Source: Candidatus Phycocordibacter aenigmaticus (GTDB lineage Bacteria; Patescibacteriota; Minisyncoccia; Phycocordibacterales; Phycocordibacteraceae). Taken from it: 37,420 nt of DNA. The position numbers were made by a program, and so were the translations under genes. Positions 1-17,613 of this stretch are shown in pieces (the stretch's first letter is position 1; each line of letters opens with the position of its first letter). The stretch is from assembly GCA_045401115.1 (NCBI GenBank), contig CP174359.1:613247-650666 (forward strand). Reading direction: 5' to 3'. The notes under the pieces were generated by a model. The model was given only the letters and a program-made list of their open reading frames with translations. It was not told the origin of the DNA and made no database searches.

Positions 1-433
1 ACTCCCAGACATTTATTGATTCAAAAAAATCTTTAGTATGACCGATCCAATCTTTTGTGTCGGTAGCATTAAAATCCTGTTCCAGAAACAGGAAGTATCC
101 CTTTGCATAAAGCTTATCTTTGAAACATGATCGAAGCTTTGTATTACCACGGTTCTCTAAGTCTCTTGCAAGAACTTCAATTACATTATAGAAAAGACCA
201 CAATCATTCCACTCATGATATCGTCTGTTACATGTCTGAAATGAGGGTGCTCCAGGGTAATTTAGGTCACGCCATGTGTACCCGCTAGTGCTCCCAAACA
301 CAAACATGAAGAGGCACATTTCAAACACATGTTTTTCATCCTTACGTTTGCGACCACGAGTTTCAAGAGTAGAGATCTTAGGAATCAAGGGTTTTATGAT
401 ATCCCATTGCTTGTTGGACAGTTTTAATATCAT
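1..433 (-). CDS. IS5-family transposase-like protein (DUF4096-like N-terminal domain), runs off the window edge; not in the ORF track
   Basis: Manual translation from ATG 433: MILKLSNKQWDIIKPLIP..RGRKRKDEKHVFE..WRDL..PSFQTCNRRYHEWNDCGLF..LARDLENRG..LRSCFKD, open to base 1. Matches the IS5-type pattern LxxxQW..GRP..WRDL..TxxRRFxxW. Confidence 0.7.
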   Translation of the reverse strand, partial: MILKLSNKQWDIIKPLIPKISTLETRGRKRKDEKHVFEMCLFMFVFGSTSGYTWRDLNYPGAPSFQTCNRRYHEWNDCGLFYNVIEVLARDLENRGNTKLRSCFKDKLYAKGYFLFLEQDFNATDTKDWIGHTKDFFESINVWE

Positions 434-1593: not shown

Positions 1594-3318
1594 ATGAATT
1601 ATCACGATAATTACAAAGAGTATGAGTTTGCTATGTATAACAGGAAATCAAGTGAAAGCGATGAAAGACAAGCTCTCTCAATCGAATCACAAAGAGAAAG
1701 AAATCAGCAAACAGCAGAATACTACGATATAAAAATTAAACCTGAGAACATAATTGAGGAATCAAAGTCAGCGAAAAAATCTGGAATGAGACCCGAGTTT
1801 AACAAACTATTAGGCAACATACGGAAAGGAAAAATTCATGGGATTATAGTCTGGAATATAGATCGAATATCTAGAAACGCTGGTGATGCAGGTCAAGTAA
1901 TTGATCTAATTGATGAAGAAAAACTAAAGTATGTCATAACTCCTCAACAGACATTTAAAAACCTACCAAACGATAAAATGATGCTCAATTTCTACTGCAT
2001 GCAGGCAAAGGTTGAGAATGATCATAAAGGTGAGGGTGTGAAAAGAGGACTCATAAAGAAAAGAGAGATGGGTTACCCGCCACATGGTGTAGGCGTCGGT
2101 TACTTAAACGACTCAGGAGAAAAGGGATATAGAACAATCTATCCAGATCCTGAAAGATTTGAAGTAGTTAAACAACTGTTCCAGATGTATCTCACTAGAA
2201 AATATAGTGCGAGACAACTACATATACATGCCAGAGATGAATTAGGACTTACGTCAGTGCCAAGAAAGTCTATTGGTGGGACCCCAATAAGTAAAACTGC
2301 TTTTTATGGAATGTTAAGAAATCCAATATATGCAGGCTTCTTCTATGGCAAGAATGCAGAGAATGAAATGGTGCGATACGAAGTACATAAATCAGTACCA
2401 CGAATGATAACGGAAACTCAACACAAGAAAGTAATTTCACTCCTGAAAAGAAACGGAAACCCACGCCCGTGGTCACATGTAGACGAATACCCGTTCAAAC
2501 AATTCTTGAAATGTGGATCTTGTGGCGGATCGGTCACTGCTGAAAGAAAAAATCAGGTGTATTGTTTTGACTGCAAAAAGAAAACGTCAATTCTGCAGAA
2601 CAATGTTTGCAACGGGTGTGGCAGAGATATATACAACATCAAGAAAAAGACCATTATAGATATAACGTATTACCGTTGTTGTAACAGAAATACGAACTGC
2701 AAGTCGGTAGAAGGTAGTAAAACTGAGACCACTTTAACAAATAAGCTTCTAGAAGATTATGCCCAGAAATTGGCAATATCACCCGCCTTAAAAGAATGGT
2801 GTTTAGATAGCATAGGTATATTAGAACAGAAAGAGAAAAAGGAGGGTAAAAAAATAGAAAAAACATGGCTAGTGAAACTGGAAGAATACAAATCCAAGCA
2901 GGAGAAACTACTTGATGCTCATCTAAACAACCTCATTGATAATGAGGAATACAAAGCAAAGAAAGCTGAAATACAGGATAAGGTTGATACTCTGACAGCA
3001 AAAATAGACCCCATAGTGCGTAAGAAGATAGATATGAAGGAACTACAACGTAAGTTCGATATATTAACGGAATTTGCAGATGTAATTAAAAATGGAGACT
3101 ATGAGGAGAAGATTGAGGCACTCTCCTTAATGGGTTCGAACCTAACGATAACCAGAGAAAAGATTAGTATTAGCAAGACAATTCTGTATCGGGCAATTGA
3201 AAGAGGGCTTTATGAAGCAAAACTCAAAAATCCTATGTTCGAACCTGAAAAGTATCAAGCAAATAAAGAACAAACCGAAGCTTTCGCTTCGGTTTGTCCC
3301 ACTCTGCTCCGCGAGTAG
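1594..3318 (+). CDS. Large serine recombinase/integrase (resolvase, recombinase and Zn-ribbon domains, coiled coil)
   Basis: YNRKSSE catalytic Ser motif, Q..SIESQ, RPEF, DRISRN, NPIYAG, CGSCG Zn ribbon, C-terminal coiled coil. Confidence 0.93.
   Translation: MNYHDNYKEYEFAMYNRKSSESDERQALSIESQRERNQQTAEYYDIKIKPENIIEESKSAKKSGMRPEFNKLLGNIRKGKIHGIIVWNIDRISRNAGDAGQVIDLIDEEKLKYVITPQQTFKNLPNDKMMLNFYCMQAKVENDHKGEGVKRGLIKKREMGYPPHGVGVGYLNDSGEKGYRTIYPDPERFEVVKQLFQMYLTRKYSARQLHIHARDELGLTSVPRKSIGGTPISKTAFYGMLRNPIYAGFFYGKNAENEMVRYEVHKSVPRMITETQHKKVISLLKRNGNPRPWSHVDEYPFKQFLKCGSCGGSVTAERKNQVYCFDCKKKTSILQNNVCNGCGRDIYNIKKKTIIDITYYRCCNRNTNCKSVEGSKTETTLTNKLLEDYAQKLAISPALKEWCLDSIGILEQKEKKEGKKIEKTWLVKLEEYKSKQEKLLDAHLNNLIDNEEYKAKKAEIQDKVDTLTAKIDPIVRKKIDMKELQRKFDILTEFADVIKNGDYEEKIEALSLMGSNLTITREKISISKTILYRAIERGLYEAKLKNPMFEPEKYQANKEQTEAFASVCPTLLRE
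3261..3297 (-). terminator. Intrinsic terminator downstream of tRNA-Asn, embedded antisense in the recombinase CDS
   Basis: 12-bp perfect stem 3270-3281/3286-3297, GAAA loop on the minus strand, followed by TCTTTATTT. Confidence 0.7.
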
Positions 3319-3692
3319 GACTCGAACCTACAACCAACTCGTTACATGTGATCCCAATGTTTCCAAAGGGCATGGACTATATCATCACCCGCTACATAAA
3401 GTAGTGAGGGTGCGAGGCGCTTCCCAGAACATCTCTGTTCTAGTACTCCCGAAGGATAGTCTCTGAACCTTCCTTGAGAAAATATCTCAAAGCTTGGCTG
3501 CTGATTGCCCGTTCTCTTATAGAGAGTGTGGGTTTCCAGTACCGAAAACAAGCTTACGCTTGACGGCATTCACGGTTTTTTAATTTGCTTGGCAAAAATA
3601 AAACCGGAACAATTCACCTCGTTTGCGCACTAGGGTTTCCCCTAGCGGCTGCCTTGTGACAGCGAGCTGCTCTACCATTGAGCTATCGCGGA
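3307..3692 (-). tRNA. tRNA-Asn(GTT), intron-containing: 5' exon 3692-3659, 3' exon 3344-3307
   Basis: Spliced sequence TCCGCGATAGCTCAATGGTAGAGCAGCTCGCTGT^TAACGAGTTGGTTGTAGGTTCGAGTCCTACTCGCGGAG folds as a full cloverleaf with acceptor TCCGCGA/TCGCGGA, G73 and anticodon loop CT-GTT-AA. CCA is not encoded. Confidence 0.93.
3345..3658 (-). ncRNA. Group I self-splicing intron (314 nt, no ORF; P7.1/P7.2 present, IA-like) between anticodon positions 35 and 36
   Basis: P1 GCUGU-C/G-GCAGC with U.G at the 5' splice site; P2 CUAGGG-GAAA-CCCUAG; P3 CGAGGUG/CGCCUCG; Q AAUCAGCAGC; R GUUCAGAGACUA; S AUGAUAUAGUCC; P7 GACUA/UAGUC; terminal G at 3345. Confidence 0.92.
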
Positions 3693-3784: not shown

Positions 3785-3812
3785 ATTTTAGCCAATTTTT
3801 CACGGTATGCAA
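3785..3812 (-). promoter_or_regulatory. Putative sigma70 promoter for tRNA-Asn
   Basis: Minus strand TTGCAT-16 nt-TAAAAT about 90 nt upstream of the tRNA. Confidence 0.5.
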
Positions 3813-3866
3813 ACCCCTTTTCTTTTTTAGACTAAACCACAAGAATCTTTACATCTCGCACACAGA

Positions 3867-11473: not shown

Positions 11474-13261
11474 ATGTCTACAGATAACACACACACGACA
11501 GGCGGAGAAAAAATCACACGAGTGAGTGGTCCGTTGGTGGAAGCAAGCGGTATGGAATCAGCACAAATGTTTGAAGTGGTGCAGGTTTCAAACGAAAAAC
11601 TCCTTGGTGAAGTCATTGGTTTGAACAACGGCATTGCTTCTATTCAAGTATATGAAGATACCGCGGGCGTACAGCCAGGTGACCCTGTATTCCGCACAGG
11701 AAACACAATGTCCGTTGAACTTGCTCCGGGACTTCTCGAGTCAGTCTATGACGGTATTCAACGTCCCCTCTCAGCAATTGCTGAAAAAAGTGGCAGTTCT
11801 TTTATTGAGCGCGGTATTGAAGCGCATGGTATTGACCGCGAACGTCAGTGGGAATTTACCGCAACCGCAAAAGCAGGTGCTACGGTTTCAGGTGGCGATA
11901 TTATCGGCACTGTTCCAGAAACAACACTTATTACTCATAAAGTAATGGTGCCACCGCATATTTCAGGAACGCTCAAATCAATTGATTCAGGAATCTATAA
12001 AGTAGAAGACACTATTGCGACTATCGTAGACGAAGATGGGATAGAGCATCCTATTGCACTTTTGCAAAAATGGCCGATTCGTAACCCGCGTCCTACAAAA
12101 CAAAAAATCTTCCCTTCTGAACCACTGATTACCGGTATTCGTTCAATTGATACCCTTTTCCCTGTTGCCAAAGGTGGTGTTGCTGCAATTCCTGGTCCAT
12201 TCGGTAGTGGTAAAACGGTGACCCAGCAAGGATTGGCAAAATACTGTGACGCACAGGTGATTGTATACATCGGTTGCGGTGAGCGTGGTAATGAAATGAC
12301 TGAAGTGCTCGACGAGTTCCCACACCTTATTGATCCAAACACTGGAGAGCCGCTTATGAAGCGCACCATTCTTATTGCCAACACATCAAACATGCCAGTA
12401 GCAGCGCGTGAAGCGAGTGTGTACACCGGCATCACTATTGCCGAGTACTATCGCGACATGGGCTACTCAGTGGCGCTGATGGCAGACTCAACCAGTCGTT
12501 GGGCTGAGGCGATGCGTGAGATTTCAGGCCGTATGGAGGAAATGCCTGGTGAAGAAGGATATCCTGCGTACCTTGCCTCACGTACTGCTGAATTTTATGA
12601 GCGCGCTGGTGTTGCAAAACTCCAGAGCAGTGAAGACAGAGAAGGTGCACTTACTGTTATTGGTGCGGTATCGCCTCCTGGTGGTGACCTTTCTGAACCA
12701 GTGAGTCAGGCAACACTTCGCGTGACGAAAGTGTTCTGGGGTCTTGATTCAGCACTTGCCTATAAGAAGCACTTCCCTGCTATTAACTGGCTTACGTCCT
12801 ACTCATTGTACGTAGACAACATTAAAAACTACTGGGCTACGCAAGTCGCTGAAGATTTTGCTGAAATTCGCCAGCACGCAATGACCATCCTCCAACAAGA
12901 ATCGAAATTGATGGAAATTGTACGCTTGGTGGGTGTTGAATCAGTATCTGATGAGGAACGCATCACCCTTGATATCGCCAAGTCACTCACTGACGATTTC
13001 CTCTTCCAGAATGCGTTTGATAAAGATGACGCGTATACCCCACTCTTAAAGCAGTACCAAATCATTAAGAGTATTATCACGGTAAACAATGCGGCAAAAC
13101 AGGCACTTGAAAACGGTGAACTCACCTACGCACAATTCGCCGCAATTCCCGAACTAAAAGAACTGGGAGCACTTAAAGACATTTCCGCTGACGACACCGG
13201 TGCATTTGAAGACTTTAGAAAGCGAGTCACCGCAGCCATTAGTAGTGCAAACAACACGTAA
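11474..13261 (+). CDS. atpA: V/A-type ATP synthase subunit A
   Basis: GPFGSGKTV Walker [30 protein letters not shown]. Confidence 0.97.
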
Positions 13262-13268
13262 AGAGTAT

Positions 13269-14675
13269 ATGGAAACAAACAAAAGCTATAAAACAGTAAG
13301 TGAGATCAATGGGCCACTCGTTGTCGTAGAAGGAGTTAGTGGTGTTGGTTATGACGAACTTGTGGAGGTAACCGTACCAGGCGAGACAAGAACACGCCTC
13401 GGTAAAGTACTCGACGTGCACACTGATAAAGCGGTAGTGCAGATGTTTGAGCCAACCAAGGGTGCACAAACCGAAGGAACTAAGGCGCGCTTCTTAGGTG
13501 AGGGACAAAAAATGCAACTTTCCCCTGACATGCTCGGTCGTGTGTTCTCTGGAGGCGGTAACGTGATTGATAACGGGCCGGCGCTTATTCCTGAGGAAGA
13601 GCGTAACATTAACGGTTTGCCGATGAACCCATACAGCCGTCAATTCCCGAACGACTTTATTCAGACCGGTATCTCTTCTATTGATGTGATGAACACGTTG
13701 GTACGTGGACAAAAGTTGCCTATTTTCTCAGGTTCAGGTTTGCCACACGCTAAATTTGCCGCGCAGATTGCACGTCAAGCAAAAGTAACCGGAGGTGAAG
13801 AGTTCGCTATCGTGTTTGCCACTATGGGTGTGCCATTTGATGAAGCGGAATATTTCCGTCTCCAATTTGAAGAGACTGGCGCACTTGAGCGATCAGTGCT
13901 CTTCATTAACACTGCATCTGACCCGGTAGTTGAACGTATCTCAACGCCACGGCTTGCACTTACCACTGCTGAATATCTTGCCTTTGAGCATGATATGCAT
14001 GTGCTCGTTATCATGACTGATATCACAAACTACTGTGAAGCACTGCGTGAGGTATCGAGTGCTCGTAAAGAAGTTCCAGGACGTCGTGGATATCCGGGAT
14101 ACATGTACACCGACCTCTCAACATTGTATGAACGTGCCGGCAGATTAAAGGGTAAGAAAGGTACGATCACCCAACTCCCTATTCTCTCGATGCCGGATGA
14201 TGATAAGACGCATCCAATCCCCGACCTTACCGGATACATTACTGAGGGTCAGTTCGTACTTTCCCGCGACCTCCATTCAAAAGGTATTTTTGCACCAGTT
14301 GACGTGCAAGGATCACTATCTCGTTTGTGGTCAGCAGGTGTAGGTGAAGGTAAGACTCGTGAAGACCATTCCGCACTTAAAGACCAACTCTTTGCGTCAT
14401 ACGCAACCGGAAAAGAGGTGCGTGAACTTGCCGTGGTGCTCGGAGAAGCGTCGCTTACCGATACCGACCGCGCACACCTTATCTTCGCAAACCGCTTTGA
14501 GAAAGAATTCATTAACCAAGGCAGCGACGTAGAGCGTAGTGTTATTGAGTCCCTTGATATTGGATGGGAATTGCTTCGTGTACTTCCCCGCTCTTCATTG
14601 AAACGCCTTAAACCAGCGCTTATTGAAGAACATTTGGGACCGGAAGAGAAAACGCCAACTGAAGACACTGAGTAA
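13269..14675 (+). CDS. atpB: V/A-type ATP synthase subunit B
   Basis: [45 protein letters not shown]; start set at ATG 13269. Confidence 0.97.
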
Positions 14676-14699
14676 TATTCCCTCACTTTGTAGTAGCTT

Positions 14700-15332
14700 A
14701 TGGCAGAACTTAAAGTCAATCCAACACGTATCAACCTCCTTAAACTCAAGGCTGAGCTAAAGGTGGCAAAGCGGGGTCATAAACTGCTTAAAGACAAGCG
14801 TGATGGTTTGATGCGTGAATTCATGGCTGCGGTGAAGGATGTACGCGCTCTGCGTAAAGAAGTAAATAGTGAGTTAATTCGTGCCTTTGAAGGCTACATT
14901 AGTGCCAGCGCGCTTATGGACGAGCATGTACTTAATAATGCTTTCACACACTATGACACGAGCGTCGGCGGTGTAGATATAGATGTCCGTCAGGTTATGT
15001 CAGTGAGTATTCCTTCATTCACGCCACTTGAGCGAGAAGAAGTATCATTGCCGTATGGATACCTTGAGTCGTATGGAAACCTTGATACGGCGATGCATAA
15101 ACTGAAGCATGTATACCCGCGACTCATTAAACTGGCGGAGCTTGAATCATCTGTTGAGAGACTGGCGCGCGAAATTGAGCGTACGCGTCGCCGCGCGAGT
15201 GCGCTTGAAAATATTCGCATTCCATTGTTAACCAACACTATTCGTACCATTTATTTACGTCTTGAGGAACAGGCACGTGATGCCGTGGTATCAACCATGC
15301 GCGTAAAAGCACTTATCACCAAAGGAAATTAA
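14700..15332 (+). CDS. atpD: V/A-type ATP synthase subunit D
   Basis: VNPTR..L, GHKLLKDKRD, EIERTRRR..ALE..IP. Confidence 0.95.
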   Translation: MAELKVNPTRINLLKLKAELKVAKRGHKLLKDKRDGLMREFMAAVKDVRALRKEVNSELIRAFEGYISASALMDEHVLNNAFTHYDTSVGGVDIDVRQVMSVSIPSFTPLEREEVSLPYGYLESYGNLDTAMHKLKHVYPRLIKLAELESSVERLAREIERTRRRASALENIRIPLLTNTIRTIYLRLEEQARDAVVSTMRVKALITKGN

Positions 15333-15341
15333 TTGAATACT

Positions 15342-15638
15342 ATGCTTAACGAAATCAAAAAAGCTGAAGAAGAGGCACTAAACACGATACAGAAAGCCAA
15401 AGAAGAAGCAGAAACACTGCTTCACGATGCGCGTCAACGTGTTGCTACAGCACAACACAGTGCTGAACAAAAAGCACACGAGGCAGAGAAAAAGCTTATA
15501 CAAGAAGCGGAGCAAAAAGCACAGGATGAAGCTGCCGATATTGTTACAGACGCTCAACGTGAAGTGGACAGCGCAAAAGATGCAAAAACACAGGTAACTA
15601 CCATTGCCAATTCGGTAGTAGACGATCTCATTTCATAA
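15342..15638 (+). CDS. V/A-type ATP synthase subunit G/H (peripheral stalk)
   Basis: EIKKAEEEA..I..AK.EA coiled coil, located directly before subunit I. Confidence 0.85.
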   Translation: MLNEIKKAEEEALNTIQKAKEEAETLLHDARQRVATAQHSAEQKAHEAEKKLIQEAEQKAQDEAADIVTDAQREVDSAKDAKTQVTTIANSVVDDLIS

Positions 15639-15645
15639 TTACAGT

Positions 15646-17613
15646 ATGTCACTCTTAGCAATGCAAAAAATTCGTCTCTTTGTAACCCGTCATGATACGG
15701 AGAGGCTGATGACATTGCTCCATGACTTTGGTGGTGTGGAGATTATTGACAATACGCAAGACGACACACTTACCCCGAATGAGCTGACACGCTTTGAGCA
15801 TCGTCATGCATCAGCACGCGTTGACGAGGCGGTGCATTTTCTTTTGGAATATCATAAAGGCAGCTTTTTCCGTGGACTCTTTGAAGGTAACCGTGCGTAC
15901 ACTACCCCCAGCGAAATACAAACACTTGCCGAGTCATACGATCCGGAACCGACACTCAATGAGGCACACCAACTACAACGTGACCGCAACGCCCTGACTA
16001 AAAAAGAGAACGAACTGAACGAACGTGAACAAGAACTTCTTGAATGGAAACGACTCTCCTACCTCCTTTCTGATGTGGTTGAAACACGCAACGTCTGCAC
16101 CGTTCCCCTTCGTGGCGCTGTGTACGCATTTGAATCATTGAAGACAGACCTTGAGAAAGAAACATCTTTGGTAGCGCTCGATAAAGTGTCAGAAACCACC
16201 TACCTTGCAGTGGCACACAAAGACGTTATTGATACAGTACAAAACCTAGCTGAAACGTACGATCTTGAAATCGTGCGTCTTCCTAAAACCGGAAAGACCG
16301 CCCAAGAAGAGCTTAACGCTATTGGCGCTACCCGCGCTGAACTGCGGCAAGAATCTGAACATATTACGCAAAAGGCGACGCTCCTTGCTGAAAAAGAATT
16401 AGTGACTCTTAAAAAATGGGCTGACTACGTATTCTGGAATATGCAGGAACGTGACCTTGCTGGTACTCGTCCCGGTACTACGTTTACCCAAGTAGTAGAA
16501 GCATGGGTGCCTACTCGTTTCCTTCCTGAATTAGAACGACGGTTAACTGATACCCTTCCTGAATCAGCGCTCGAAACTCTTGAGTTAACTGAAGGCGAGG
16601 AACCACCAGTTGAGGTTGAAAATAGTGGTTTTTTCAACTCGTTTGAAACGATTACTCGTCTGTACGGCGTGCCTACACATAAGGACATCGATCCGACGCC
16701 ATTTCTTGCAGTATTCTTTTTCCTTTTCTTTGGTATGTCACTCAGTGATGTGGGATATGGCGCAATATTAATGACGCTTACGGGAACTGTTCTTTTACGA
16801 TACAAGATTGACCGTGGCATGAAGCAGTTACTTACCATGCTTTTCTTTGGTGGTGTCGGGTCTCTCCTCTTTGGTGTGCTCTTTGGTGGATACCTTGGTA
16901 TTAACCCTGGCGCTATTCATCCAGCGCTCAGTGTCTTGCAGTTGTTTGATCCAATTAATAACCCGTTGCCTGTGTTCTACCTCGCACTTGCCTTTGGTTT
17001 TGTACAAATCGTGTTTGGTATCATCCTTGATATTGCGCGTACATTTAAAGCAAAAGAGCCGGTGCGTGGACTTCTCGACAATGTGCCATGGTTGGCGATG
17101 TTTATGGTATTTCTTGCCTTTCTTTTGGCGAGTGTCGGCATTTTCGCTGAATCGGTTAATACAGTTATTATTGCGTGGTGGGGCAAAGCCGCTATTGCTG
17201 CAGCAGTAGCTATTATGATTACCCGTGGTAGATACGGCGTAAATATCTTTGATAAAGCACTCAAAGGCGTACTCGCACTCTATGGCGGAGTAAACTACTT
17301 CTCTGACCTTCTCTCCTACTCACGTCTCCTCGCACTCGGTTTGGCAACAGGAGCACTCGCCTTTTCAGTGAACCTTATTGCTGGATTCATAGGTGGCGAA
17401 GAACTCGGTATTGGCACGTTCTTTGCCGTTGTTATCGTTATCCTCGGCCATGCCCTCAATATCACACTCAGTACACTGGGCGCATTCATTCATAGCGCGC
17501 GTCTGCAGTTTGTAGAGTTCTTCGGTAAGTTCTTAACCGGCACTGGGCGCGTCTTTACGCGTTTCAGTAAAAAAGAACGCAATGTTATTATGCTTCCTGA
17601 TTCGCCAACATGA
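15646..17613 (+). CDS. atpI: V/A-type ATP synthase subunit I (a)
   Basis: IDPTP, DVGYG, SYSRLLALGLA, RLQFVEFFGKF. Confidence 0.96.
   Translation: MSLLAMQKIRLFVTRHDTERLMTLLHDFGGVEIIDNTQDDTLTPNELTRFEHRHASARVDEAVHFLLEYHKGSFFRGLFEGNRAYTTPSEIQTLAESYDPEPTLNEAHQLQRDRNALTKKENELNEREQELLEWKRLSYLLSDVVETRNVCTVPLRGAVYAFESLKTDLEKETSLVALDKVSETTYLAVAHKDVIDTVQNLAETYDLEIVRLPKTGKTAQEELNAIGATRAELRQESEHITQKATLLAEKELVTLKKWADYVFWNMQERDLAGTRPGTTFTQVVEAWVPTRFLPELERRLTDTLPESALETLELTEGEEPPVEVENSGFFNSFETITRLYGVPTHKDIDPTPFLAVFFFLFFGMSLSDVGYGAILMTLTGTVLLRYKIDRGMKQLLTMLFFGGVGSLLFGVLFGGYLGINPGAIHPALSVLQLFDPINNPLPVFYLALAFGFVQIVFGIILDIARTFKAKEPVRGLLDNVPWLAMFMVFLAFLLASVGIFAESVNTVIIAWWGKAAIAAAVAIMITRGRYGVNIFDKALKGVLALYGGVNYFSDLLSYSRLLALGLATGALAFSVNLIAGFIGGEELGIGTFFAVVIVILGHALNITLSTLGAFIHSARLQFVEFFGKFLTGTGRVFTRFSKKERNVIMLPDSPT

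What the first reader, a model, noticed from the sequence alone, without database searches (positions are those of the whole stretch)
3307..3692. tRNA-Asn(GTT) split inside the anticodon (35/36) by a group I intron
Seen: a complete group I core, with exons that rejoin into a perfect cloverleaf. Established: the classic bacterial tRNA group I introns are in Leu(UAA), fMet, Ile and Arg(CCU) tRNAs, and standard tRNA finders often miss such genes. I recall 35/36 insertions in Asn/Asp tRNAs being reported recently for Patescibacteria, so this may not be new, but it is uncommon. The same tRNA is also the island target.
Basis: partly seen in the sequence, partly recalled or inferred. Interest (0 to 1): 0.7.

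Follow-up and report, generated by a model that had tools for sequence, protein, structure and literature searches.

The report
Group I intron splits sole tRNA-Asn
The only asparagine tRNA gene of this tiny bacterial genome is interrupted in the middle of its anticodon by a self-splicing-type (group I) intron, a real but fairly widespread arrangement that standard tRNA finders miss or mislabel.

Summary
A 34-nt 5' exon and a 38-nt 3' exon flank a 314-nt group I intron. Joined after U35 and after the intron's last G, the exons give a tRNA with anticodon GUU (Asn).

The junction rests on natural empty sites. Eight loci from related genomes carry an uninterrupted tRNA-Asn(GTT) with near-identical exons. 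ARAGORN's rival call, Thr(GGT), is excluded: it breaks the U(-1)/terminal-G rule, and the genome's real tRNA-Thr(GGU) lies elsewhere, itself intron-split at 36/37.

The intron core is supported by covariation across 38 homologues. No other tRNA-Asn gene exists in this 98%-complete, 721-kb genome, so the intron must be removed in vivo. No RNA data were available to show this.

It is not rare. A capped scan found the same site occupied in at least 98 species genomes, mostly Patescibacteria but also Acidobacteriota and Ignavibacteriota. It is sporadic across the phylum (7 of 400).

- A 70-nt structured insertion sits inside P4.
- An HNH endonuclease family is tightly linked to this intron. It lies inside the intron or beside the tRNA in other species, and is free-standing 9.7 kb away here.

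The island-target claim is plausible but unproven.

The parts
3307..3692 (-). Whole interrupted tRNA-Asn(GUU) gene (pre-tRNA body, 386 nt)
   Evidence: The exons form the acceptor stem TCCGCGA/TCGCGGA, D arm, anticodon stem GCTCG/CGAGT, T arm GTAGG/CCTAC and discriminator G.
3659..3692 (-). 5' exon, tRNA positions 1-35, ends ...CUGU (U35 = U-1)
   Evidence: It is 97% identical to the 5' half of a related genome's intronless tRNA-Asn.
3345..3658 (-). Group I intron, 314 nt, with no recognisable protein gene; terminal G (omega G) at 3345
   Evidence: Rfam RF00028 45.9 bits, E 1.6e-10. Covariation. The 75-aa ORF at 3342-3569(-) has no Pfam hit.
3307..3344 (-). 3' exon, tRNA positions 36-73, begins UAAC
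   Evidence: It is 97% identical to the 3' half of the intronless tRNA-Asn.
3648..3663 (-). P1: exon GCUGU (3663-3659) pairs with intron GCAGC (3652-3648); U35.G wobble at the 5' splice site
   Evidence: In 38 sequences the pairs are U.G 35 of 38, C-G 38 of 38 and U-A 37 of 38.
3630..3645 (-). P2 hairpin with GAAA loop
   Evidence: All 6 pairs show compensatory changes.
3615..3621 (-). P3 5' strand (CGAGGUG); pairs with 3413-3419
   Evidence: Cells paired 98.5%; 3 of 7 pairs have changes on both sides.
3540..3609 (-). 70-nt two-hairpin insertion branching from a bulge in the 5' strand of P4 (between UUG 3612-3610 and CUGG 3539-3536); second hairpin has a GUAA loop
   Evidence: A homologous insertion occurs in L060, and other insertions sit at the same point in L024 and L043. 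It is single-copy in the genome.
3498..3504 (-). P4 3' strand (UCAGCAG)
   Evidence: Of 7 P4 pairs, 4 have changes on both sides, and the 4 inner pairs are 100% paired.
3468..3497 (-). P6/P6a
   Evidence: All 8 P6a pairs show compensatory changes.
3457..3461 (-). P7 5' strand (GACUA); pairs with 3375-3379 (UAGUC) as a pseudoknot across P3
   Evidence: All 5 pairs are invariant in 38 sequences.
3424..3456 (-). Two extra hairpins between P7 and P3' (P7.1/P7.2-like)
   Evidence: Present in the 'type A' relatives and absent from compact relatives such as L074.
3386..3412 (-). P8
   Evidence: Of 5 pairs, 4 have compensatory changes.
3353..3370 (-). P9 hairpin with GAAA loop and tandem U-U mismatches
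   Evidence: Of 7 pairs, 6 have changes on both sides.
3267..3300 (-). Terminator-like hairpin plus T-run just after the tRNA 3' end
3785..3813 (-). Promoter-like site about 93 nt upstream of the tRNA (consensus match only)
1594..3318 (+). Large serine recombinase gene, convergent with the tRNA and overlapping its 3' end by 12 nt
   Evidence: Pfam Resolvase 3.4e-21 and Recombinase 6.6e-06.

Best explanation
This is the genome's single, essential tRNA-Asn(GUU) gene, interrupted between anticodon nucleotides U35 and U36 by a 314-nt group I intron that encodes no recognisable protein.

Inferred mechanism:
- The primary transcript folds so that tRNA nucleotides 31-35 (GCUGU) pair with the intron's guide sequence GCAGC. 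This is P1, with U35.G at the splice site.
- An external guanosine bound at P7 attacks after U35.
- The intron's last G (3345) then takes the G site, and the 5' exon attacks after it.
- This joins CUGU to UAAC and creates the GUU anticodon.
- The anticodon stem formed by the two exons probably holds them together, because no P10 pairing is evident in this copy.
- The mature tRNA (U1-A72, G73) is probably charged through the indirect Asp-tRNA(Asn)/GatCAB route.

Shown here: the gene anatomy, the junction, the conserved and covarying ribozyme core, and the uniqueness of the gene. Inferred: actual splicing, and whether it needs protein help.
For: Junction:
- Eight loci from related genomes have contiguous tRNA-Asn(GTT) with the same exons, which places the 314-nt insertion exactly at CTGT|TAAC. 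ARAGORN calls all eight Asn(gtt).
- The site obeys the group I rules of U before the 5' splice site and G as the last intron base.

Ribozyme:
- Rfam full-length match, E 1.6e-10; homologues score 54-97 bits.
- RNAalifold independently recovers P1-P6, P8 and P9 plus the anticodon stem, with 30 of 56 pairs compensated.
- My full structure, including the P7 pseudoknot, beats both controls.
- The window keeps every invariant column of the 38-sequence alignment.

Necessity:
- ARAGORN finds 36 tRNAs (38 when introns are allowed) and no Asn.
- BLAST with a related genome's tRNA-Asn hits only the two exon halves.
- The genome is one contig and 98.45% complete.

Functional tRNA:
- The acceptor pair 7-66 is A-U here and G-C in relatives, a compensatory change.
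- U1-C2-C3-x-C5 matches the conserved tRNA-Asn acceptor reported for cyanobacteria (PMC5733544, passages).

Charging:
- No AsnRS reaches its cut-off (best 104.7 bits against 342.6).
- GatB is present at 491 bits.
Against: - There is no RNA evidence. No RNA run holds the locus, so splicing itself is unobserved.
- The Rfam score is below the curated cut-off (45.9 against 50).
- A 70-nt insertion interrupts the P4 core helix, and two hairpins sit between P7 and P3'. Either could slow or compromise folding.
- No P10 pairing is visible in this copy.
- P5a, P7.1 and P7.2 align poorly across relatives (35%, 71% and 41% of cells paired). Support for these peripheral hairpins comes from single-sequence folds only.
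Confidence: 0.9

Rival explanations
1. The gene is tRNA-Thr(GGU), split one base earlier (CTG|T...CAT|GTAAC), as ARAGORN in intron mode calls it.
For: With -i, ARAGORN reports tRNA-Thr(ggt) with a 314-nt intron at 33/34 numbering. The default tRNA set also lacks Thr(GGT).
Against: - That junction has G before the 5' splice site and T as the last intron base, against group I rules.
- The intronless orthologues read GTT, not GGT.
- The genome's true tRNA-Thr(GGU) lies at genome c319807-320076 beside Thr(CGU). It is intron-split at 36/37, and uninterrupted orthologues in the same synteny exist in two genomes of the genus.
- The window tRNA has U1-A72/G73, whereas both Thr tRNAs have G1-C72/U73.
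- ARAGORN -i mislabels 76 of 116 such genes.
Confidence: 0.01
2. The gene is dead: a tRNA inactivated by an intron that no longer splices, with Asn decoding supplied in some other way (an unassembled gene, or tRNA taken from a host).
For: - Rfam score below the cut-off.
- An unusual insertion inside P4.
- No RNA data.
- The organism is probably an episymbiont with a reduced genome (inference from the 721-kb size).
Against: - The genome is a single contig, 98.45% complete, and nothing else resembles tRNA-Asn.
- All invariant core positions are retained.
- The exons keep compensated stems.
- The P4 insertion is itself conserved, with similar hairpins, in another species (L060). That intron scores 54.2 bits.
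- The locus has its own terminator-like hairpin and a promoter-like site.
Confidence: 0.04
3. The intron is genuine and is removed, but splicing in vivo depends on a protein cofactor or chaperone. This is not exclusive of the main explanation.
For: - There are extra peripheral elements: the P4 branch and the P7.1/P7.2-like hairpins.
- P10 is missing.
- Many group I introns need helpers (review PMC3984707, passages).
Against: - No candidate maturase is encoded in the intron.
- The classical bacterial tRNA introns self-splice in vitro (recalled; cited in PMC3984707).
- GAAA loops in L2 and L9 suggest self-contained tertiary docking (the Azoarcus parallel is recalled).
Confidence: 0.15

Closest known systems
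Classical bacterial tRNA group I introns: tRNA-Leu(UAA) and tRNA-fMet of cyanobacteria, tRNA-Ile(CAU) of Azoarcus, tRNA-Arg(CCU) of Agrobacterium (subgroup IC3)
   Same: - A small group I intron in the anticodon loop of a bacterial tRNA.
- P1 is built from anticodon-loop nucleotides, with U.G at the splice site and G as the last intron base.
- The P3-P7 core wording is similar (J3/4 AAU, P6 CCAAGC...GAAGG, P7 AGAGACUA); the similarity to Azoarcus is recalled, not computed.
- There are GAAA loops in L2 and L9.
   Different: - The host tRNA is Asn.
- The position is 35/36, inside the anticodon. By the preprint's own nomenclature the classical sites are loop positions 2, 3 and 5; converting these to tRNA positions 33/34, 34/35 and 36/37 is my own.
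- This copy has two hairpins between P7 and P3' and a 70-nt branch in P4, which compact IC3 introns lack.
- Subgroup membership was not tested, because no subgroup models were available.
The 21 classes of group I-split tRNA genes of Williams 2020 (bioRxiv 10.1101/2020.01.27.920355; whole text read)
   Same: The approach and logic are the same (exon-based mapping, U-1 and terminal G). That study reports many new classes, with a high frequency (0.49 per genome) in metagenomic assemblies of unnamed phyla. It probably already contains this class, which would be 'Asn.4Ug' in its nomenclature.
   Different: Table 1 and Fig. 3 are held as images and the supplements are closed. I could not confirm that Asn at loop position 4 is listed; the word 'Asn' does not occur in the text.
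Collaborative homing of ORF-less introns with free-standing HNH endonucleases in phages (reviewed in PMC3984707, passages)
   Same: - An ORF-less intron is combined with a free-standing HNH gene.
- Close relatives of that HNH gene sit inside the same intron in other species, or right next to the same target gene.
   Different: - The host here is a bacterial tRNA gene, not a phage protein gene.
- The HNH gene here is 9.7 kb away, not adjacent.
- Its target site is untested.
tRNA-fMet intron of Synechocystis with its intron-encoded endonuclease (Bonocora and Shub 2001; seen only in the reference list of PMC3984707)
   Same: A tRNA anticodon-loop intron family in which some members carry a homing endonuclease gene.
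   Different: The endonuclease family differs (HNH here). The ORF sits in the P1 loop, and its 3' end reads through P1 and P2.

Membership tests
Group I intron (Rfam RF00028) | P1 helix containing the 5' splice site, with U(-1) in a U.G wobble | tested here: met
   GCUGU/GCAGC with U35.G. U.G is present in 35 of 38 homologues.
Group I intron (Rfam RF00028) | Guanosine as the last intron nucleotide | tested here: met
   G at 3345 precedes TAAC. For the relatives this was imposed by the search pattern, so it is not independent there.
Group I intron (Rfam RF00028) | Conserved core P3-P4-P5-P6-P7-P8 with the P3/P7 pseudoknot | tested here: met
   All helices are written on the window. Covariation is seen in P3, P4, P5, P6a and P8. 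P7 is invariant, which says nothing for or against it.
Group I intron (Rfam RF00028) | Score at or above Rfam's gathering threshold | tested here: inconclusive
   The window scores 45.9 against 50 bits, with E 1.6e-10 and full model coverage. Of 16 related loci, 14 score 54-97 bits. This is an operational cut-off, lowered here by the P4 insertion.
Group I intron (Rfam RF00028) | Guanosine-dependent self-splicing | not testable with these tools
   No RNA run holds the locus. A bench assay is needed.
Subgroup IC3 (classical bacterial tRNA introns) | Subgroup-specific architecture (compact, no P7.1/P7.2) | tested here: inconclusive
   The window has two hairpins between P7 and P3', whereas compact relatives at the same site lack them (L074). 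No subgroup models were on hand.
tRNA-Asn | Anticodon GUU in a standard cloverleaf after exon joining | tested here: met
tRNA-Asn | Orthology to uninterrupted tRNA-Asn genes | tested here: met
   The exons are 97% identical to the intronless tRNA-Asn(gtt) of related genomes.
tRNA-Asn | U1-A72 pair and G73 discriminator (identity elements for bacterial Asn and GatCAB; recalled) | tested here: met
   U1-A72 and G73 are seen. A conserved U1-C2-C3-x-C5 is reported for cyanobacterial tRNA-Asn (PMC5733544).
Mobile group I intron with homing endonuclease | Endonuclease gene inside the intron | tested here: not met
   The only ORF (75 aa, 3342-3569) has no Pfam hit and overlies the core. In other species, 16 of 16 introns of 520 nt or more carry an HNH match.
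Mobile group I intron with homing endonuclease | Cognate endonuclease acting in trans on the intronless allele | not testable with these tools
   A free-standing HNH gene lies at genome 606571-606873. It is 72% identical to intron-encoded copies. Cleavage specificity is unknown.
tRNA-targeted genomic island | Recombinase gene next to the tRNA 3' end | tested here: met
   The serine recombinase gene at 1594-3318(+) overlaps the tRNA 3' end.
tRNA-targeted genomic island | Repeat of the tRNA 3' end marking the far boundary | tested here: not met
   There is no second copy in the window at up to 3 mismatches, and none in the genome by short BLAST. Serine recombinases need only a very short crossover (recalled), so this does not exclude an island.

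The most novel reading that the evidence does not exclude
The ORF-less tRNA-Asn intron and the free-standing HNH endonuclease gene 9.7 kb away may be two halves of one mobile system (collaborative, trans-acting homing). Across Patescibacteria the same HNH family is found in three settings: inside the intron's P1 loop, immediately beside the tRNA-Asn gene, and dispersed. It was not found beside intronless alleles. That would make a natural series showing how a homing endonuclease gene and a ribozyme become one mobile intron, here at an essential single-copy tRNA gene. The recurrent branch inserted in the P4 core helix would be a new tolerated expansion site in the group I fold.
Probability: 0.3. 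Interest if true: 0.6.

Novelty: new member of a known kind. Interest (0 to 1): 0.4.

Why it matters
- Annotation. Default ARAGORN finds 0 of 116 such genes. With introns allowed it names only 40 of 116 as Asn and Thr. Small genomes can therefore wrongly appear to lack tRNA-Asn or to have odd tRNA sets.
- Biology. A 721-kb genome makes all asparagine decoding depend on a ribozyme, and Thr(GGU) decoding on a second one. That makes these introns obligatory parts of the translation apparatus.
- Evolution. Three features give a good comparative system for intron gain, loss and endonuclease capture:
  - The genus is split roughly in half between filled and empty sites.
  - Two different intron cores occupy the same site.
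  - An HNH family tracks the intron.
- RNA structure. The branch inside P4 is a testable exception to the rule that peripheral additions sit in loops.

Tried and rejected
- RNA evidence: the look-up of sequencing runs listed 8 runs, none on record as RNA ('no RNA holder listed').
- Literature: 10 searches were attempted, one of which failed on a term-syntax error. None of the others returned a paper that names a group I intron in bacterial tRNA-Asn. PMC7651992 has no mention of introns or Asn. tRNADB-CE and the permuted-tRNA review cite only the classical cases.
- First alignment A1 used wrong minus-strand coordinates for several loci. It was discarded and redone as A2 and A3.
- Synteny test for the island: ORFs flanking tRNA-Asn in 8 related loci map to scattered places in this genome, so no clean empty-site comparison was possible.
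- I first suspected that 'type B' introns were rearranged. By hand reading they can be drawn as ordinary P3-P8 cores with different sequence. Rfam gives no hit at E<=0.001 for the two tested, so this stays open.
- A covariance model of my own was not built, because the model would be too long for the calibration limit.
- The phylum-wide count of intronless alleles with the matching pattern was not run, so 7 of 400 has no matched denominator.
Full report
**What is there.** The window is part of a one-contig, 721,362-bp genome rated 98.45% complete. Named near-relatives place it in Patescibacteria (CPR). On the minus strand, 3692-3659 reads as tRNA positions 1-35 and ends CUGU. Default ARAGORN and Rfam at gathering thresholds report nothing in the window. 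A relaxed Rfam scan gives a full-length Intron_gpI match at 3353-3625(-), 45.9 bits against a cut-off of 50, E 1.6e-10.

**Which junction, which tRNA.** With introns allowed, ARAGORN calls the gene tRNA-Thr(GGT) by cutting one base earlier. That cut puts G before the 5' splice site and T at the intron end. The alternative, CTGT|...G|TAAC, has the canonical U(-1) and terminal G and yields GUU.

The question is settled by natural empty sites. A DNA search of 60 relatives and exon matching found 8 loci with an uninterrupted gene reading ...CTGTTAA.... Their exons are near-identical to the window's, and ARAGORN calls all eight tRNA-Asn(gtt).

The genome's real tRNA-Thr(GGU) is elsewhere, at genome c319807-320076 next to Thr(CGU). 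It carries its own 194-nt group I intron after position 36. Two genomes of the genus have the uninterrupted Thr(GGT)-Thr(CGT) pair in the same order. The window tRNA has U1-A72 and G73, while both Thr tRNAs have G1-C72 and U73.

**Is it needed?**
- ARAGORN finds no other Asn tRNA among 36 genes, or 38 with introns allowed.
- BLAST with a related genome's tRNA-Asn hits only the two exon halves, plus a weak match to tRNA-Lys.
- No asparaginyl-tRNA synthetase reaches its cut-off (best 104.7 bits against 342.6), but GatB is present at 491 bits. Asn-tRNA is therefore probably made on this tRNA by transamidation.
- The acceptor pair 7-66 is A-U here and G-C in relatives, a compensated change.
- A terminator-like hairpin follows the gene, and a promoter-like site lies about 93 nt upstream.

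**The ribozyme.** I wrote P1, P2, P3, P4, P5/5a, P6/6a, P7, P7.1/7.2-like hairpins, P8 and P9 on the window sequence. All are standard pairs except two U-U mismatches in P9.

RNAalifold on 10 relatives independently returned P1-P6, P8, P9 and the exon-exon anticodon stem, with 30 of 56 pairs compensated.

On 38 distinct homologues, my structure including the P7 pseudoknot gave these results:

| Measure | Observed | Control |
|---|---|---|
| Cells forming a standard pair | 83.7% | 72.0% in shuffles |
| Covariation score | 0.343 | 0.142 in shuffles (0 of 500 reach it); at most 0.145 with partners slid 1-3 columns |

| Helix | Pairs with changes on both sides |
|---|---|
| P2 | 6 of 6 |
| P3 | 3 of 7 |
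| P4 | 4 of 7 |
| P5 | 2 of 3 |
| P6a | 8 of 8 |
| P8 | 4 of 5 |
| P9 | 6 of 7 |

P7 never varies, so it is uninformative. P5a, P7.1 and P7.2 align poorly (35-71% of cells paired), so they rest on single-sequence folding. That fold gives -108.7 kcal/mol with z = -5.26. Of 16 related loci, 14 score 54-97 bits with Rfam; the 2 misses are both 'type B'.

**Peculiarities of this copy.**
- A 70-nt insertion (3540-3609) branches from a bulged U between the third and fourth pair of P4.
  - It folds into two hairpins, one with a GUAA loop, and is single-copy in the genome.
  - L060 has a clearly homologous insertion with similar hairpins. L024 and L043 have unrelated insertions at the same point.
- Two hairpins lie between P7 and P3'. 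They are shared by 'type A' relatives and absent from compact relatives such as L074.
- No P10 pairing is visible in this copy. Some relatives have UUA opposite the 3' exon UAA.
- The intron has no recognisable protein gene.

**How common.** In 98 of those, a tRNA-Asn 5' half ending CTGT lies 173-604 nt upstream. Most of the other 22 have truncated flanks. Record titles are mostly Patescibacteria lineages. They also include Pyrinomonadaceae (one a 6.27-Mb chromosome), Ignavibacteriota, Bacteroidota and a few MAGs labelled Proteobacteria.

In the genus, 12 genomes have complete intron-bearing genes, 3 have partial ones at contig ends, and 11 have intronless genes. In an even draw of 400 genomes of the phylum, only 7 match the pattern. 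The pattern is strict, and I did not count intronless matches with the same pattern.

At this one site there are at least two different cores. 'Type A' is the window's kind. 'Type B' (12 by motif rules) can be drawn by hand as a normal P3-P8 core, but Rfam did not detect it in the two loci tested.

**An endonuclease that travels with the intron.**
- All 16 introns of 520 nt or more contain an HNH match in the P1 loop. In 13 of the 16, a BLASTP hit to this genome's HNH protein falls in an ORF of 84 aa or more. The ORF's 3' end reads through P1 and P2, encoding ...TQLP....
- This genome has a free-standing 100-aa HNH gene at 606571-606873(+) (Pfam HNH). It is 72% identical over 99 aa to the intron-encoded copies.
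- In 13 other loci with ORF-less introns, a homologue lies within 82-335 nt of the tRNA gene. None is seen in the 8 intronless loci.
- In the genus, 7 of 32 other genomes have a strong match (E<=1e-24). Each match lies 76-334 nt from an intron-bearing tRNA-Asn. None of the 11 intronless genomes has one.
- Related genomes are not independent, so these counts show an association, not a rate.
- This resembles collaborative homing as described for phages (PMC3984707, passages). The enzyme's target is untested.

**Island claim.**
- A large serine recombinase gene (1594-3318, +) ends 12 nt inside the tRNA 3' end.
- Beyond it lie an IS4/5 fragment, a Dam-type methylase with DUF7687, an Mrr-like nuclease, the HNH gene, a zeta-toxin-like kinase, a type I restriction-modification system and an OLD-like ATPase.
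- G+C in this stretch is mostly 0.34-0.42, against 0.436 for the window.
- This fits an integrated defence island.
- However, no repeat of the tRNA end was found, and synteny with relatives is too scrambled to define ends.

**Literature.**
- A 2020 preprint (10.1101/2020.01.27.920355, whole text read) raises the known classes of group I-split bacterial tRNAs from 4 to 21. It notes a high frequency in unnamed metagenomic phyla. Its table and figure are images and its supplements are closed, so I cannot say whether Asn is listed.
- Lui et al. 2021 (PMC8172020, passages) remark that some CPR tRNAs had group I introns.
- The tRNAscan-SE 2.0 paper (PMC8450103, passages) mentions only fMet and Ile2 cases.
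- None of the ten search attempts (one failed on syntax) returned a paper naming tRNA-Asn.

**Verdict.** The finding is real and correctly read. It is a new (or barely documented) member of a well-known kind and is widespread in public genomes. The side observations, namely the P4 branch, the two cores at one site and the HNH linkage, are worth a specialist's look.

Noticed in passing
L003:1449-1718 (genome c319807-320076, outside the window): A second intron-split tRNA in the same genome: tRNA-Thr(GGU) with a 194-nt group I intron after position 36 (...ATGGT|...G|AAGG). ARAGORN -i mislabels it Arg(gcg). The Rfam score is only 19.5 bits. Uninterrupted orthologues occur in two genomes of the genus, in the same Thr(GGT)-Thr(CGT) order.
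   Followed up: yes
L002:1501-1731 (genome 74349-74579, minus strand): A third group I intron (45.5 bits) sits inside the 23S rRNA gene of the same genome.
   Followed up: partly
L154:13395-13697 (genome 606571-606873, plus strand): A free-standing 100-aa HNH endonuclease gene, 72% identical to HNH ORFs located inside tRNA-Asn introns of other species. It is 73-77% identical to copies lying 76-92 nt upstream of tRNA-Asn in three genomes of the genus. Here it is 9.7 kb from the tRNA, on the other strand.
   Followed up: partly
L019, L020, L049, L059, L065 and 11 more loci (introns of 520-604 nt): The HNH reading frame lies in the P1 loop of the tRNA-Asn intron. Its 3' end reads through the P1 and P2 strands (conserved ...TQLP... 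ending), so protein and ribozyme share sequence.
   Followed up: partly
window 1594-3318 (+), window 2-433 (-), and L154:1-20000: A large serine recombinase gene abuts the tRNA 3' end. Beyond it are an IS4/5 fragment, a Dam methylase with DUF7687/7690, an Mrr-like nuclease, a zeta-toxin-like kinase, a type I R-M system and an OLD-like ATPase. The stretch looks like a defence island of lower G+C; its boundaries were not found.
   Followed up: partly
L006, L007, L011, L014, L016, L021 (introns of 192-201 nt): Genomes of the same genus carry a second, shorter intron type at the very same 35/36 site. It shares P1, P2, P7' and P9 wording with the window's type but has a different P3-P6 region. Rfam gave no hit at E<=0.001 in the two tested.
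   Followed up: partly
L060:585-911, L024:1441-1760, L043 (intron of 344 nt): Insertions occur at exactly the same bulge in the P4 5' strand as in the window. L060's is homologous to the window's, with similar hairpins. The other two are unrelated in sequence.
   Followed up: partly
G008:C48:10929-11093 (rows): One genome of the genus has an intronless tRNA-Asn. About 20 nt away lies a separate fragment matching the intron 3' end plus the start of the 3' exon, possibly a relic of intron loss or a partial duplication.
   Followed up: no
L053 (6.27-Mb Pyrinomonadaceae chromosome), L054 (Ignavibacteriota), L071/L075/L080 (Bacteroidota): The same tRNA-Asn 35/36 intron occurs outside Patescibacteria, in large genomes. 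Rfam scores are 83-86 bits for the two tested. This hints at lateral spread or great age.
   Followed up: partly
whole genome G000: No asparaginyl-tRNA synthetase reaches its curated cut-off (best 104.7 bits against 342.6). GatB is present at 491 bits. Asparagine is probably made on the tRNA.
   Followed up: partly
window 11474-17613 (+): Genes for a V/A-type ATPase (A subunit, D, G-like and I subunits) lie in the window.
   Followed up: no
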